Of a DNA stretch of 64,000 nucleotides, positions 46,548 through 49,844 are shown piece by piece (within the stretch, counting starts at the first letter, position 1; each line of letters begins with the position of its first letter). The translations under genes and the position numbers were made by a program. The notes below the pieces were generated by a model. The model saw only the letters and a list, made by a program, of their open reading frames with translations, was not told the DNA's origin and searched no databases. This DNA comes from an uncultured Candidatus Saccharibacteria bacterium (GTDB lineage: Bacteria > Patescibacteriota > Saccharimonadia > Saccharimonadales > AWTP1-31), in assembly GCA_964643545.1 (NCBI GenBank), contig CAZXTE010000001.1, positions 19,101 through 83,100 of the forward strand, given 5' to 3'.

Positions 46548-49500
46548 CTATTGGCGCTTGGTGGGGTCGTTGCCAACATCTATTGGGATATCCTCTCCAG
46601 GAAGTGGGGTACCGGACCGTCCCGCTGGACCACCCGGTACAGTTGAGCGTGTTGGAGTACCGGCTATGGGGTCTGCTCTGCCTGTGGTGCCTACCTCGCG
46701 GCTCCACTCGACGGGGTCAGTTGCGGCGTGCCCTGTAGCTGGGTCGATCCTAGAACTAGTTTCAAATAATGCGTAAAAGTTCTCCATTTCTTCTTTGGTG
46801 CGTCCGCTAGCACCACCACCAACTTGGGTGATCATTCTTCCAGTTGGGGTACCGCTTGCCGTCATTTCCGGTACTGTCTGGCCGATGCTGCGTGCAATTC
46901 GAGCACCACGTTGGATAACTTCATTTGCGGCTGCCTGTTCATCGGCTGTTGCAGCTGGGTTAGCGAGTGTGGTACGAGCACGAACGACTTCTTCTGACAT
47001 TGTAGTCCAGGTGTCCGGATGCTGTTGTGTCATCTGGTATGTGCCTTGGCGTTCATCGATCTCTTGCATAAGGGCTGTGGCATTCATGGTTAGTCCATTC
47101 TCGCCGTATTGGTAATGCTTCCACTCGCGGTCGGTATTCTGGTTGGCGAAGGCCGCACCCGTCCATATGCCACCCATTTGGCCTGTAGTAGCATTTTCGG
47201 CAGCACCACCACGTGTTGCTAGGCGACCAACGTTCTGGTACAGGTAATCATGTTGTTCTTGGGTGGTGGCTTTGCGCATTTCGTAACTAAGAGCGTACTG
47301 TGCAGCATCTTGGTCCCCACGCCAGCGATTGTGTGCCGCATCCACGGCACTTTCGTCGACCCATTTCCCACCAAGTGTTTTATATTGACGTGTATTATTG
47401 TGGATTCGAACATGACCATTCCCGTCCGGGTCGTAGAGGTTGCCGGCTATAGCATCGGCCTCCGCCTTGTTTACAGTCAGTGCTCGTACCTCAGTATCAT
47501 CCCCGGTAGAGGTCAGCTGCTCCATTCGTTTTTGTGTTTCGCCACGCATTGCTGTAATACCCTCCTCGAGGTTATAGCCACCAACACGCCCCTGCAAGAA
47601 TCGCGCGCTTCTGCCAAACCGACCGCCCCTGCTGGCGTAGGTGCCAAGGGCACGGTATTGACGATCTCGTGCTGTTAGCATGCGGCGCTGCACATCTTGT
47701 TTGGCCTGTTCTTTGCGACTTTTGGTGAGCCCTCCAACCTTTGCGGTGCCCCCAGCAACGGCTGCATAGAGTTTGCCCATGGCTCCCCCGGCAAACTTGA
47801 AAGCAAAAGGAATCAGGAATAATGGGATAATTTGCAGCGAGAATGCGATGAGACCCGCAAGTCCCGCGGAAACAGGGTTGGGACTTCCGGAAGTCCCTAC
47901 GGCGTCATTTGCTACGAGTATTGTTGCGCTCAATATGCTGGCAGTCGAGAATATAACAACAACAATTGGGAACACTAGTAATGTCTCGAATAATAAGTTC
48001 CACCACTTTTTAAAATATTGTTCGGTATTTGGGAGGCAGTACAAAGCAAATGCAACGGGGCTGACCATAATGAGGGCTAATATAATGCCGCGCCGAATAA
48101 CGAGCGTTGCAAAGACCGCAAGGATGGCTAACATTGCCGGAACGACAATGCCGATAAGAATAAAAACTGCCGCCTTCCCCAGGAACCCTGCCGTTAAAAA
48201 CCCACCCAGGAACCCTGCAATACCTGCAGCCCCAAGAAACAATGCGAGAACAGTAGTTAGTACTGCGCCAAGTTGCGCCCCTGGGCTGGGAGCTGCATGA
48301 AGCAAATCGGCCACTGGGGCCATCATGAGCTGGGCAATTCCCTTGCCAAGAACGTTGGTGATGTCCACGAGCAAAGCCACAATGTAGACAGATAAGTTTA
48401 TGAGTATGGCCGCTATTAATATGCGTGGCATCACTTTCTTGGCTGTATACGCATCGATAATGCCTCCACCGATAGTTTGCCCAAAAACAATGACCAGCAT
48501 GGCTATGATGAGGAATATATTGCCATAAACGCGAAATGCCGACCACGCCTTGAAGCTCGGGTCTGATGGGTCGGTAGAAACAGGGCTGGTATATAAAAGA
48601 GGGGATACAAGATTCTTAAAAAGCCAGTCAGTTGTTTCGGCAAACATATTAAAGACAGGGCAAAGTATCCAGTTTAGGCTAAAACCAGATGCTTCGCAGG
48701 TGGCGTTTGTGTCGTCCGATGTGCCGTCCGTGTTCCCACCCCCAGACGGGTTACTGCCCCCACTATTATCTCCCTGATTTCCTTTAGAATCTTCAATTTG
48801 TTTCTGGTAATCGCCATCAAGATCCTTCATGAGCTTAGATAGGTCTGGGGTAAAGCCGTCATCTTCCAAAATATGGAAACATTTTTTATTCTTGTCGCCG
48901 CCACACTGCTGAGAGTTACTGTTCGTATCTAGATTATAGACGAGACTACTCCCGACCATCTGCACTGCGTAATTATCTGCCGTGATTGCGGCACTGGACC
49001 ATGTTACGTCATCTTGGTCTACTTCAAAGTCTTGATTGATGGTGAGTGCAATTGTTATCTCTTTGCCATCCTTGTCCTTTATGACGGATGCTGCACCACT
49101 ATTGTTGTTGCCAGGCAGCTTAATGAGACGAAAGCGAAAATTACCCGACTTTTTTAGAAAGGCGAGCTTGTCTGCCTGGGCACTAGCTTGTATGTAGTCT
49201 TTATCGCCAGCTTTAATTTTAAAGTGGACGCTTACTTTTCTTTGATTAAGTGGGCTGATATCGATACGTGACGTACATGTCTTGTCTCGATACGATTTGT
49301 CGGCAAACTTTTGGTGTTCCTCCCAGACCCCTGAGCTCTTAAGCTTTGAGTAGAGCTTTTCGGCTTGATCTGCATAAAACCTCTTGGTGCTCGCGTCGCC
49401 GCCATTACGAATGTCCCACAAGTGGTCCTGATCTTTGGGGTTGCCTTTCTGGTAGGTAAATGTGCCAGGAAAGCACAGGTCCATGGTAAGCCGTGCATCT

Positions 49501-49844
49501 CCATTAACAAATGTGGCAATACGGGGCGCAGCTACTGTAGAAAACTCAGCCGAGGCAGTCTTATAGGTATAGTCACCATTATCCGGGATAGATTCTGCTT
49601 TGTTATCGGCGCGAATGTAAGGCAAGTCTCGATCCGTGCGGGTTGTAAAGACATCCTTTCCCGGAACACGATTATAATTTGAGTTCACATCGTCATCATA
49701 AGGACTGGTAGCGTATGCTATTTGTGGCGTGAAAATAATAACGCCAGCAAGAAGCTGCAGGATGATAAATGATATAAAAGCAAATGGAATAAGCTTGCGG
49801 TTAGATCTCACAACTGAAGTATAGATTAACGGAATTAAATACAC
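46548..49844 (-). CDS. giant VirB6/TrbL-like polytopic protein (ectodomain + multi-TM core + cytoplasmic tail)
   Basis: 1098 aa with a GTG start. It has an N-terminal signal/TM, an exported domain of about 400 aa, a Gly/Ser/Asn-rich linker (GNQGDNSGGSNPSGGGNTDG) and 7-9 TM helices containing CLPNTEQYFKKWWNLLFETL. A soluble tail of about 380 aa follows. Confidence 0.55.
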   Translation of the reverse strand: MYLIPLIYTSVVRSNRKLIPFAFISFIILQLLAGVIIFTPQIAYATSPYDDDVNSNYNRVPGKDVFTTRTDRDLPYIRADNKAESIPDNGDYTYKTASAEFSTVAAPRIATFVNGDARLTMDLCFPGTFTYQKGNPKDQDHLWDIRNGGDASTKRFYADQAEKLYSKLKSSGVWEEHQKFADKSYRDKTCTSRIDISPLNQRKVSVHFKIKAGDKDYIQASAQADKLAFLKKSGNFRFRLIKLPGNNNSGAASVIKDKDGKEITIALTINQDFEVDQDDVTWSSAAITADNYAVQMVGSSLVYNLDTNSNSQQCGGDKNKKCFHILEDDGFTPDLSKLMKDLDGDYQKQIEDSKGNQGDNSGGSNPSGGGNTDGTSDDTNATCEASGFSLNWILCPVFNMFAETTDWLFKNLVSPLLYTSPVSTDPSDPSFKAWSAFRVYGNIFLIIAMLVIVFGQTIGGGIIDAYTAKKVMPRILIAAILINLSVYIVALLVDITNVLGKGIAQLMMAPVADLLHAAPSPGAQLGAVLTTVLALFLGAAGIAGFLGGFLTAGFLGKAAVFILIGIVVPAMLAILAVFATLVIRRGIILALIMVSPVAFALYCLPNTEQYFKKWWNLLFETLLVFPIVVVIFSTASILSATILVANDAVGTSGSPNPVSAGLAGLIAFSLQIIPLFLIPFAFKFAGGAMGKLYAAVAGGTAKVGGLTKSRKEQAKQDVQRRMLTARDRQYRALGTYASRGGRFGRSARFLQGRVGGYNLEEGITAMRGETQKRMEQLTSTGDDTEVRALTVNKAEADAIAGNLYDPDGNGHVRIHNNTRQYKTLGGKWVDESAVDAAHNRWRGDQDAAQYALSYEMRKATTQEQHDYLYQNVGRLATRGGAAENATTGQMGGIWTGAAFANQNTDREWKHYQYGENGLTMNATALMQEIDERQGTYQMTQQHPDTWTTMSEEVVRARTTLANPAATADEQAAANEVIQRGARIARSIGQTVPEMTASGTPTGRMITQVGGGASGRTKEEMENFYALFETSSRIDPATGHAATDPVEWSREVGTTGRADPIAGTPTRSTVPGGPAGRSGTPLPGEDIPIDVGNDPTKRQ

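What the first reader, a model, noticed from the sequence alone, without database searches (positions are those of the whole stretch)
46548..49844. Oversized VirB6-like protein with a 400-aa exported head and 380-aa cytoplasmic tail
A central block of 7-9 TM helices has a TrbL/VirB6-like segment (..CLPNTEQYFKKWWNLLFETLLVFP..). It is flanked by a large N-terminal exported domain, a Gly/Ser/Asn-rich linker and a long soluble C-terminal region rich in Arg/Gly/Thr. Extended VirB6 proteins are known from a few systems (for example Rickettsiales). In a monoderm-type minimal system, the head could be the surface-exposed or host-contacting part of the channel.
Basis: partly seen in the sequence, partly recalled or inferred. 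Interest (0 to 1): 0.5.

Follow-up and report, generated by a model that had tools for sequence, protein, structure and literature searches.

The report
Extended VirB6 subunit of Saccharibacterial T4SS
This gene encodes the large membrane "platform" protein (VirB6 class) of the type IV secretion machine that ultra-small Saccharibacteria need to live on their host bacteria. The protein family is already known, and the new detail is that its outer domain is lineage-specific while its inner domain is conserved.

Summary
The ORF is real: 46548-49844 (-), 1098 aa, with a probable true start at GTG 49811. Its layout matches the description. It has a signal peptide, a 300-aa Cys-containing head, a Gly/Ser/Asn/Asp linker, a hydrophobic core with 7 segments, a 340-aa folded tail and a disordered end.

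The gene sits between six pilin genes and PrgI/VirB3, TraC-like and VirB4, next to dnaA. This is the known Saccharibacterial T4SS locus. A gene of matching size and position in S. epibionticum (SEML1_0013, presumed ortholog) was already annotated TrbL/VirB6 and found essential.

The head has only three relatives among 1.84 billion proteins, yet it is under purifying selection (dN/dS 0.026). The tail is conserved, Cys-free and has no PDB match. An outside head and a cytoplasmic tail are inferred, not shown.

Verdict: a new member of a known kind, of modest interest.

The parts
46548..49844 (-). Whole ORF of the extended VirB6-like protein (1098 aa as listed; the probable real start is GTG at 49811, giving 1087 aa)
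   Evidence: ORF list. Start inferred from the N-termini of P0001, P0121 and P0123. dN/dS 0.042 against L006.
49710..49844 (-). Signal peptide or anchor (residues 1-45): basic n-region RSNRK, hydrophobic stretch, A-Y-A cleavage-type site before TSPYDDD
   Evidence: Hydropathy. A45 is at least 90% conserved in A1. 110 of 120 relatives have an N-terminal hydrophobic segment. The A-x-A site followed by PYD(D/N)D is conserved in the four proteins that share this head.
48810..49709 (-). Head (residues 46-345): acidic, Cys-containing, lineage-specific exported domain of unknown fold
48699..48809 (-). Gly/Ser/Asn/Asp-rich flexible linker (residues 346-382)
   Evidence: Composition. pLDDT about 27-33 in the head model.
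47745..48698 (-). VirB6/TrbL-class hydrophobic core (residues 383-700). It contains the invariant pair C383/C395, an amphipathic helix, and long hydrophobic helices of 29-82 residues. A variable Gly-rich segment lies at 518-545.
47967..48038 (-).
   Evidence: P605, F611 and W614 are invariant; N606, T607, E608, Y610 and W615 are at least 90% conserved. It aligns with TrwI QPTHRFFDQW and with TcpH 383-418.
46725..47744 (-). Tail domain (residues 701-1040): conserved, Cys-free alpha/beta domain joined to the last core helix by one continuous 82-residue helix. The cytoplasmic location is inferred.
46551..46724 (-). Disordered Pro/Gly/Thr/Arg-rich C-terminal end (residues 1041-1098)
   Evidence: pLDDT 36-47. 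Low occupancy in the family alignment.
50447..53460 (+). Divergently transcribed array of six VirB2-like pilin genes (T4SS_pilin PF18895), the presumed clients of the VirB6 platform
   Evidence: Pfam. The same array lies next to the VirB6-like gene in L003-L006. L086 has a smaller pilin set in the same locus.
44428..45471 (-). PrgI/VirB3-like membrane protein
   Evidence: PF12666, E 3.4e-11. Syntenic in all loci examined.
41602..44387 (-). Split VirB4: a TraC-like/TrsD-like N-terminal protein (43515-44387) and the VirB4 ATPase (41602-43515), overlapping as TAATG
   Evidence: Pfam P-loop_TraG and AAA_10. PF26593 TraC-like on the orthologues. Junction sequence. TrsD context from PMC12102498.
35401..41575 (-). 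Two giant wall-hydrolase genes playing the VirB1-like role: GDSL+VanY (37829-41575) and GH3+NlpC/P60 (35401-37863)
   Evidence: Pfam. Equivalent large hydrolases lie downstream of VirB4 in related loci.

Best explanation
**What it is**
The gene encodes the VirB6/TrbL-class polytopic subunit of the chromosomal, origin-proximal type IV secretion system of a Saccharibacterium (Patescibacteria). This is a monoderm (MPF-FATA-like) system that also carries VirB2-like pilins.

**How it most likely works**
These steps are inferred by analogy with R388 TrwI, Legionella DotA and pCF10 PrgH.
1. The protein enters the membrane through Sec, and the signal peptide puts the head outside.
2. The long hydrophobic helices of the core oligomerise, probably as a pentamer. 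They form a chamber or platform in and above the membrane.
3. The pilins encoded next door are recruited from the membrane onto this platform and assembled into a pilus. Substrate enters the pilus lumen through it.
4. The disulfide-capable, lineage-specific head hangs on a flexible 37-residue linker on the outer face. It plays the part that DotA's unique disulfide-rich extended domain plays: a collar or cap of the chamber in the wall zone, and possibly a contact surface.
5. The last core helix runs on as an 82-residue helix into the conserved tail. The tail sits in the cytoplasm and most likely docks the platform to the PrgI, TraC-like and VirB4 ATPase complex.

**Shown here**: the ORF, its domain layout, the VirB6 fold of the core, the gene neighbourhood, the conservation pattern and the selection regime.

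**Inferred**: the oligomeric state, pilin recruitment, the sidedness of the tail, and the partners of the head and tail.
For: **Fold of the core**
- AlphaFold model of residues 380-1098: mean pLDDT 81.
- Foldseek against 350,542 chains: the top five are all TrwI/VirB6 chains (best E 0.033, probability 0.98).
- A review table equates VirB6, TrwI, TraG, TrbL, PrgH and DotA (PMC12624023).

**Sequence**
- hhalign of family alignment A1 against a TrwI family alignment: P 1.9e-4, 92 columns, query 605-702 against TrwI 190-286.
- PF19590 TrbL_3 is precomputed on about half of the listed relatives. It is named on P0021 and on both L086 paralogues.
- 14 of 40 members weakly hit the NCBIfam CD3337/EF1877 mobilome membrane protein family (best E 5.8e-4).

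**Context**
- PrgI, TraC-like, VirB4, hydrolases and six pilins surround the gene. The synteny holds in five other genomes.
- dnaA, dnaN and recF are adjacent, as described for Patescibacteria (PMC12102498).

**Literature**
- VirB6 homologues lie near virB4 in Patescibacteria.
- SEML1_0013 (3267 bp, next to pilin gene SEML1_0014) has a structure-based match to TrbL/VirB6 and is essential in Tn-seq (PMC10633639).

**Topology**
- The A-x-A signal site.
- Loop 1, loop 5 and the stretch after the last helix are basic (+1.0, +1.5, +5.9). The segment before TM1 is acidic (-2.6) and loop 6 slightly so (-0.4). This puts the tail inside under both a 5-TM and a 7-TM model.
- Heads carry 7.1 Cys on average, an even number in 97 of 120. 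Tails have no Cys in 118 of 120.

**Mechanistic precedents**
- The VirB6 pentamer as a pilin platform (PMC9259494).
- DotA has a signal peptide, long hydrophobic helices and a unique disulfide-rich extended domain (PMC12501162).
- Gram-positive VirB2-VirB6 pilus models (bioRxiv 10.64898/2025.12.18.695078).
Against: - The window protein on its own does not reach any curated profile threshold. Pfam TrbL gives E 2.2, 8.4 bits against 25.9. NCBIfam CD3337/EF1877 gives E 0.056.
- The current Pfam copy returned no TrbL_3 hit even for relatives that carry the precomputed label.
- A family profile finds no PDB sequence, TrwI included.
- hhalign probability is only 47%, and no Foldseek hit reaches E of 0.001 or better.
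- In the R388 and DotA structures only the first two helices are true membrane spans. Hydropathy-based topology is therefore unreliable for this class.
- AlphaFold draws residues 555-602 as one helix and leaves 518-545 disordered.
- Nothing here tests oligomerisation, pilin binding or the partners of the tail.
- Orthology to SEML1_0013 rests on size, position and annotation. It does not rest on a sequence comparison.
Confidence: 0.8

Rival explanations
1. It is a VirB6-class protein, but the 400-aa C-terminal domain lies outside the membrane. This would resemble the C-terminal domain of F-plasmid TraG (its outside location is from memory, not checked here) and would act in the wall zone or on the partner cell rather than docking ATPases.
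For: - In the assembled R388 and Dot/Icm machines only helices 1-2 of VirB6 or DotA cross the membrane. The other hydrophobic helices form a chamber on the outer side.
- AlphaFold models residues 555-602 as a single helix and 518-545 as disordered, so the number of crossings is uncertain.
- The tail has no detectable cytoplasmic-type motif such as a nucleotide-binding site.
Against: - The 44 residues after the last hydrophobic helix carry on average 9.4 Lys+Arg, net +5.9. The other basic loops (1 and 5) fall on the same side in both the 5-TM and the 7-TM reading.
- Exported parts of this family are Cys-rich with even counts, whereas the tail has no Cys in 118 of 120 members.
- The final helix (82 residues) is long enough to return from a chamber through the membrane.
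- The C-termini of A. tumefaciens VirB6 and of TcpH are reported as cytoplasmic. This is from my own knowledge and was not checked here.
Confidence: 0.1
2. The head is a swappable host-range or surface-recognition module that directly contacts the host cell, not merely a structural collar. It has been exchanged between distant VirB6 backbones.
For: - The head is exported, Cys-containing and tethered by a flexible linker.
- It has only three relatives among 1.84e9 proteins.
- The full-length relative that shares it (P0123, 25% identity, E 1e-10) has the least similar core of 121 members (35%, rank 121). Members with 57-66% core identity have unrelated heads.
- Other exposed parts of the locus are variable too: the N-domain of the first pilin and orf172.
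Against: - No host-binding fold or motif was found.
- Between close relatives the head is as constrained as the core (dN/dS 0.026 against 0.039), so there is no arms-race signal.
- Head and core divergence between the window protein and P0123 are similar (25% and 35%). Ancient retention with loss elsewhere therefore explains the pattern as well as transfer does.
- Only three relatives are available, which is too few for a phylogenetic test.
- A membrane-anchored head may not reach beyond the wall when pili are present.
Confidence: 0.2
3. It is not a T4SS component but a generic transporter or permease. Some sources name relatives 'MFS transporter', and KEGG files the S. epibionticum gene under K01992, ABC-2 permease.
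For: - Source names on P0062, P0116 and P0118.
- The K01992 label in Wang et al., Table S1.
- There is no above-threshold TrbL hit for the window protein.
Against: - No MFS or ABC-2 Pfam or NCBIfam hit appears at any threshold.
- No transporter ranks above TrwI by Foldseek. GPCR and channel hits have probability of 0.25 or less.
- The position inside the T4SS locus is invariant in six genomes.
Confidence: 0.03

Closest known systems
SEML1_0013 of Ca. Southlakia epibionticum ML1 (Wang et al. 2023, Cell; PMC10633639)
   Same: - About the same size (3267 bp, 1088 aa).
- It lies next to the pilin array (SEML1_0014) inside the Saccharibacterial T4SS cluster SEML1_0006-0019.
- Its structure-based annotation is TrbL/VirB6, with an ARM-like helical C-terminal domain.
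- It is essential for epibiotic growth in Tn-seq.
   Different: - S. epibionticum has a second large T4SS protein nearby (SEML1_0011). The window has a single copy.
- The heads are probably unrelated, given the family pattern.
TrwI/VirB6 of plasmid R388 (PDB 7O3V, 8RT9, 8RTD)
   Same: - Co-linear profile match over the last ~95 core residues, including the P-x-T-x-x-F-x-x-W motif and the GG after the last helix.
- A partner set of VirB2, VirB3 and VirB4.
   Different: - TrwI is 342 aa, with no signal peptide, no head and only a short C-terminal stretch.
- It belongs to a diderm system in which a VirB5 pentamer caps it.
- Sequence identity is 11-16%.
DotA of the Legionella Dot/Icm T4BSS (PDB 9NGY; PMC12501162)
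   Same: - It is an extended VirB6-class protein with a signal peptide and long hydrophobic helices.
   Different: - DotA's extended domain is inserted between the hydrophobic helices (residues 154-685), not placed N-terminal to them.
- No large C-terminal cytoplasmic domain is described for it.
- It belongs to a diderm effector translocator.
Monoderm VirB6-like proteins: PrgH (pCF10), TcpH (pCW3), CD3337/EF1877 family (Tn916-type elements)
   Same: - Monoderm T4SS context with PrgI and VirB4.
- Weak recurrent NCBIfam matches (14 of 40 members, best E 5.8e-4).
- TcpH (832 aa) aligns at the same motif.
- A pentameric VirB6-like platform for VirB2-like pilins is proposed for PrgH.
- A large C-terminal cytoplasmic domain in TcpH (from my own knowledge).
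   Different: - All matches are far below the curated cut-offs.
- In the published HMM survey most Patescibacterial VirB6 homologues matched the MPF-T VirB6 profile rather than PrgH.
- No lineage-specific N-terminal head is described for these proteins.
Other 'extended VirB6' proteins (F-plasmid TraG, Rickettsiales RvhB6 paralogues)
   Same: A hydrophobic VirB6 core plus large hydrophilic domains. The review notes that their role is still unknown (PMC12857230).
   Different: - They belong to diderm systems.
- The domains are placed centrally or C-proximally and lie on the periplasmic side in TraG (from my own knowledge).
- No sequence or fold link to the head or tail was found here.

Membership tests
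TrbL/VirB6 (Pfam PF04610 TrbL, PF19590 TrbL_3) | A profile match above the curated threshold | tested here: inconclusive
   - Window protein: PF04610 E 2.2, 8.4 bits against a cut-off of 25.9, although the match covers profile positions 5-203 of 215.
- Six relatives score E 0.39-6 or nothing in the current Pfam copy.
- About half of 120 relatives carry a precomputed PF19590 hit. The hit is unmarked, meaning E of 1e-5 or better, on P0021 and on both L086 paralogues.
TrbL/VirB6 (Pfam PF04610 TrbL, PF19590 TrbL_3) | Profile-profile homology to a bona fide VirB6 family | tested here: met
   hhalign of A1 against A5 (TrwI plus 32 relatives) gives E = P = 1.9e-4 and probability 47%. It covers 92 columns, co-linear, query 605-702 against TrwI 190-286. 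This is a weak but specific signal.
TrbL/VirB6 (Pfam PF04610 TrbL, PF19590 TrbL_3) | The VirB6 fold: a bundle of long hydrophobic helices, as in TrwI and DotA | tested here: met
   [not shown]
TrbL/VirB6 (Pfam PF04610 TrbL, PF19590 TrbL_3) | Polytopic, with at least 5 hydrophobic helices and the conserved Trp-containing motif | tested here: met
   Seven hydrophobic segments. P605, F611 and W614 are invariant. They align with QPTHRFFDQW of TrwI.
TrbL/VirB6 (Pfam PF04610 TrbL, PF19590 TrbL_3) | Encoded together with VirB4, VirB3 and VirB2 genes | tested here: met
   for the window. The arrangement is conserved in L003, L004, L005, L006 and L086.
TrbL/VirB6 (Pfam PF04610 TrbL, PF19590 TrbL_3) | Pentameric assembly at the centre of the machine, required for pilus biogenesis and substrate transfer | not testable with these tools
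   No multimer prediction or experiment is available. The literature shows only that the presumed orthologue is essential.
Extended VirB6 (as defined in PMC12857230) | Five or more hydrophobic helices plus one or more large hydrophilic domains | tested here: met
   A head of about 300 aa plus a linker, and a tail of about 400 aa, flank the core. In the family the median head is 268 aa and the median tail 400 aa. The N-terminal position of one of the domains differs from the 'central or C-proximal' description.
Patescibacterial/Saccharibacterial T4SS VirB6 homologues (Quinonero-Coronel 2025; Wang 2023) | The organism is a Patescibacterium, the gene lies near virB4 and the pilins, and the locus is near dnaA | tested here: met
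   All named relatives but two are from Saccharibacteria, Saccharimonadales or Patescibacteria MAGs; the two exceptions are MAGs labelled Verrucomicrobiia and Dormiibacterota. dnaA, dnaN and recF lie at 30393-34355. The locus matches the published description.
CD3337/EF1877 mobilome membrane protein (NCBIfam NF046089) | A score above the curated cut-off (120 bits) | tested here: not met
   The window protein scores 12.2 bits, E 0.056. 14 of 40 relatives have E below 1, the best being 5.8e-4. This is a lead to a distant relationship, not membership.
MFS / ABC-2 permeases (names given by some sources) | Any profile or fold match to these transporter families | tested here: not met
   [not shown]

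The most novel reading that the evidence does not exclude
The N-terminal head is a modular, exchangeable surface cassette fused directly to the VirB6 platform. In these VirB5-less monoderm machines it would take over the VirB5/IcmX-like role of capping the chamber and engaging the host envelope. Replacing the head between lineages would then set which host bacterium a Saccharibacterium can parasitise. The conserved tail, which has no PDB match, would be a new adaptor that couples the platform to the split VirB4 in a system lacking an essential coupling protein.
Probability: 0.15. Interest if true: 0.65.

Novelty: new member of a known kind. Interest (0 to 1): 0.3.

Why it matters
The Saccharibacterial T4SS is the first T4SS shown to be essential for the survival of its owner, and nobody knows what it transports. 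Its VirB6-class subunit is the central platform of the machine.

The dissection here gives concrete handles for experiments in the one genetically tractable species. These are a lineage-specific but purifying-selected exported head, a highly conserved core, and a conserved Cys-free tail with no structural relative in the PDB. They allow head swaps to test host specificity and tail truncations or pull-downs to find the cytoplasmic partner. They also allow pilin-platform modelling.

As a discovery it is incremental. The family, its VirB6 assignment and its essentiality are already published, and extended VirB6 proteins are a known kind.

Tried and rejected
1. **Word-indexed homologue search with the head alone.** It returned nothing, not even P0001, which is 95% identical. 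I treated this as a false negative of the tool and replaced it with the exhaustive phmmer scan.
2. **Profile of the whole family against PDB sequences.** The only hits were chance matches at E above 2, and TrwI was not found.
3. **Current Pfam copy.** No TrbL_3 hit appeared for any of 40 members at E of 0.01 or better, and none for six members at E of 10 or better, despite the precomputed PF19590 labels. I relied on the precomputed labels plus fold and hhalign evidence.
5. **AFDB Foldseek search for the tail.** The library was not available. The tail was therefore searched only as part of the core+tail model against the PDB.
6. **'Nearly invariant' C190 and G172 in the head alignment.** Inspection shows that MAFFT merely lined up unrelated Cys residues, so there is no shared head motif.
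7. **Positive selection on the head.** Rejected for the one close pair available (dN/dS 0.026).
8. **Promoter/terminator scan and tandem-repeat scan of the gene region.** Counts were at chance level and nothing was usable.
9. **Single-sequence hhalign against TrwI and TcpH.** Probability was only 4-5%, although both hit the same motif.
10. **Search for a coupling protein or relaxase among the other large ORFs of the window.** None was found. The left half of the window is a surface-polysaccharide locus.

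
Full report
**1. The observation**

The ORF list shows a 1098-aa ORF at exactly 46548..49844 on the minus strand.

Hydropathy and composition reproduce the described layout:
- An N-terminal hydrophobic segment (residues 17-45) ending in A-Y-A before TSPYDDD.
- An acidic head (46-345) with 5 Cys.
- A Gly/Ser/Asn/Asp-rich linker (346-382).
- Seven hydrophobic segments between 438 and 686.
- A tail of about 400 aa rich in Ala, Gly, Thr and Arg, with no Cys.

The quoted peptide CLPNTEQYFKKWWNLLFETLLVFP is residues 603-626, window 47967-48038.

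The listed GTG start is probably 11 codons too early. The closest relative begins at the equivalent of GTG 49811.

The frame is clearly coding. Against the closest relative (L006, 94% aa identity) dS is 0.77 and dN/dS is 0.042.

**2. Neighbourhood**

On the same strand downstream lie:
- A non-conserved 323-aa ORF.
- PrgI/VirB3 (PF12666).
- A 290-aa protein whose orthologues carry PF26593 (TraC-like), overlapping the VirB4-type ATPase as TAATG.
- Two giant wall hydrolases: GDSL+VanY, and GH3+NlpC/P60.

Divergently upstream lie a small single-pass protein and six T4SS_pilin (PF18895) genes. dnaA, dnaN and recF are at 30393-34355.

No coupling protein or relaxase was found among the other large ORFs. 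The left half of the window is a surface-polysaccharide locus.

The order pilins / VirB6-like / PrgI / TraC-like / VirB4 / hydrolases recurs in five other genomes.

This is the Patescibacterial T4SS locus described by Quinonero-Coronel et al. 2025 and by Wang et al. 2023.

**3. Is the core VirB6?**

By sequence alone the window protein is sub-threshold:
- Pfam TrbL gives E 2.2, although the match spans nearly the whole profile.
- NCBIfam CD3337/EF1877 gives E 0.056.
- A family profile finds nothing in PDB sequences.

Three things lift the assignment.

- First, 183 homologues exist, nearly all from Saccharibacteria or Patescibacteria MAGs. About half of those listed carry a precomputed PF19590 hit, and the contig tool names that family TrbL_3.
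- Second, a profile-profile comparison of the family with an alignment of TrwI and 32 relatives gives P 1.9e-4 over 92 co-linear columns. These run from the PNTEQYFKKWW motif (TrwI QPTHRFFDQW) through the last two helices to the GG after the last helix. Single-sequence comparisons with TrwI and with TcpH of pCW3 hit the same motif.

DotA and TrwI are the VirB6-class subunits of their machines. The model's helices are 29-82 residues long. That is far longer than a bilayer crossing, as in TrwI and DotA.

I consider VirB6-class membership established at the level possible in silico.

**4. Topology**

The head follows a Sec-type signal sequence:
- A45 is at least 90% conserved.
- 110 of 120 relatives have an N-terminal hydrophobic segment.
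- The four proteins that share this head type conserve the A-x-A site and the PYD(D/N)D that follows it.

Charge across the family points the same way:
- Loop 1, loop 5 and the stretch after the last helix are basic (+1.0, +1.5, +5.9).
- The pre-TM1 segment is acidic (-2.6) and loop 6 slightly so (-0.4).
- These assignments put the tail on the cytoplasmic side whether segments 3 and 4 are counted as a hairpin (7 TM) or not (5 TM).

Cysteine content agrees. Heads carry 7.1 Cys on average, an even number in 97 of 120, plus the invariant C383/C395 pair. Tails have no Cys in 118 of 120. The background in cytoplasmic proteins of this window is 0.63%.

There is a caveat. In the assembled R388 and Dot/Icm machines only two helices are true membrane spans. 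AlphaFold also leaves 518-545 disordered. The sidedness of the tail therefore remains an inference.

**5. Head**

The head is lineage-specific:
- BLASTP of the head against 120 family members finds only P0001.
- An exhaustive phmmer scan of 1.84 billion representatives finds only P0001 (95%), P0121 (42%, an N-terminal fragment) and P0123 (29%). A fourth hit is a spurious FG-GAP match.
- In the species-level genome scan the matched query residues start at about 240-380 or later in all but the 94% relative.

Within one genome pair (window against L003) identity falls in this order:

| Protein or domain | Identity |
|---|---|
| VirB4 | 87% |
| TraC-like | 77% |
| Core | 60% |
| Tail | 50% |
| PrgI | 47% |
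| Pilins | 41-66% |
| Head | nothing detectable |

Yet between the window and its closest relative the head is as constrained as the core. Amino-acid differences are 5.7% against 4.1%, and dN/dS is 0.026 against 0.039. The head is therefore a functional folded domain, not a fast-evolving loop.

The distribution of this head type is patchy. P0123 shares the head but has the least similar core of all 121 members (35%). Members with 57-66% core identity have unrelated heads. This is compatible with cassette exchange, or with ancient retention and replacement elsewhere.

**6. Tail**

- The tail is a confidently modelled alpha/beta domain, with pLDDT above 90 for most of 709-1039. It is joined to the core by one continuous 82-residue helix and followed by a disordered Pro/Gly-rich end.
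- It is recognisable by BLASTP in 75 of 120 members.
- Conservation is sparse, with G781 invariant and D783 nearly so.
- It has no Pfam hit. It has no PDB match beyond generic helical repeats.
- This agrees with the 'ARM repeat' label given to the S. epibionticum protein.

**7. Mechanism**

I commit to the following model by analogy with R388 TrwI, DotA and PrgH/PrgF. None of these four statements was tested here.
1. The core oligomerises, probably as a pentamer, into the platform or chamber on which the neighbouring pilins are assembled and through which substrate passes.
2. The head forms an outer collar or cap, comparable to DotA's unique disulfide-rich extended domain.
3. The tail anchors the platform to the PrgI, TraC-like and VirB4 complex.
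4. The system has no essential coupling protein.

**8. Novelty**

- The family and its VirB6 assignment are published.
- SEML1_0013 of S. epibionticum is 3267 bp and lies next to the pilins. It has a structure-based TrbL/VirB6 match and is essential.
- Extended VirB6 proteins are a recognised kind whose extra domains are not understood.

The window protein is therefore a new member of a known kind. What this analysis adds is the three-part conservation pattern, the selection regime of the head and the absence of a structural relative for the tail.

Interest is modest (0.3). The reading that the head is a swappable host-range module replacing VirB5 is not excluded (probability about 0.15).

Noticed in passing
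window 50447-51433 (+): The first gene of the pilin array encodes 328 aa. It has a signal peptide, a Cys-rich exported domain of about 225 aa, a GGGGGG linker and only then the pilin domain. Against L003 and L004 only the C-terminal ~103 aa are conserved, so this N-domain is lineage-specific, like the VirB6 head.
   Followed up: partly
window 45524-46495 (-): A 323-aa Arg/Glu/Pro-rich ORF lies between the VirB6-like gene and PrgI. Its likely real start is M13, ATG at 46459. It has no Pfam hit and is absent from L003 and L004. In the closest relative (L006) the same region is 82% identical with 27 gap openings and is called as two genes of 175 and 110 aa. It may be decaying or frameshifted in one of the two genomes.
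   Followed up: partly
window 49932-50450 (+): A 172-aa single-pass protein lies at the head of the pilin operon. It is the fastest-evolving gene of the locus against L006 (18.6% aa differences, dN/dS 0.139). It has no counterpart in L003 or L004. In S. epibionticum a VirB8-like NTF2 protein occupies a comparable position.
   Followed up: partly
window 41602-44387 (-): VirB4 is split. A 290-aa TraC-like/TrsD-like protein ends in TAATG, overlapping the start of the 637-aa ATPase, which suggests translational coupling. The ATPase is 99.5% identical to that of L006, with dN/dS 0.012.
   Followed up: partly
window 35401-41575 (-): Two very large secreted wall-hydrolase genes overlap by 35 nt: 1248 aa with GDSL+VanY and 820 aa with GH3+NlpC/P60. 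Related loci instead carry VanY with Phage_lysozyme2 or Peptidase_C39_2 combinations, so the VirB1-like module is also swapped between lineages.
   Followed up: no
L086 4725-7685 and 8993-11917; also L021/L059, L012/L039, L076/L077: Some Saccharibacteria carry two VirB6-like (TrbL_3) paralogues. In L086 they lie in tandem within the T4SS locus and are 31% identical to each other. S. epibionticum likewise has SEML1_0011 and SEML1_0013. The window has one copy.
   Followed up: partly
window 30393-34355 (+): dnaA, dnaN and recF lie directly beside the T4SS locus, so the locus is origin-proximal. This was noted in the literature as a possible gene-dosage effect.
   Followed up: yes
window 53522-54792: An HSP20 gene (minus strand, 160 aa) and a ComF-like phosphoribosyltransferase gene (double zinc ribbon plus PRTase) follow the last pilin gene. 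The same pair sits there in L004, L005, L006 and L086, and HSP20 alone in L003.
   Followed up: no
window 1-28400: The left part of the window is a surface-polysaccharide locus. It holds UDP-glucose dehydrogenase, three epimerase/dehydratase genes, GT2 and GT4 transferases, a Wzt-type ABC ATPase, a Wzy_C ligase-like protein, YfhO and an FG-GAP repeat protein. Several ORFs of 400-550 aa have no Pfam hit.
   Followed up: no
tool behaviour: The word-indexed homologue search with the head as query returned no hit, although the same database holds P0001, which is 95% identical over the whole head. Negative results from that tool on sub-domains should not be trusted without the exhaustive scan.
   Followed up: yes
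residues 518-545 of the protein (window about 48210-48293): The third hydrophobic segment is Gly-rich, variable in length and sequence across the family, and modelled as disordered (pLDDT 36-45). Everything around it is highly conserved. Its position is comparable to the place where DotA carries its inserted extended domain.
   Followed up: no
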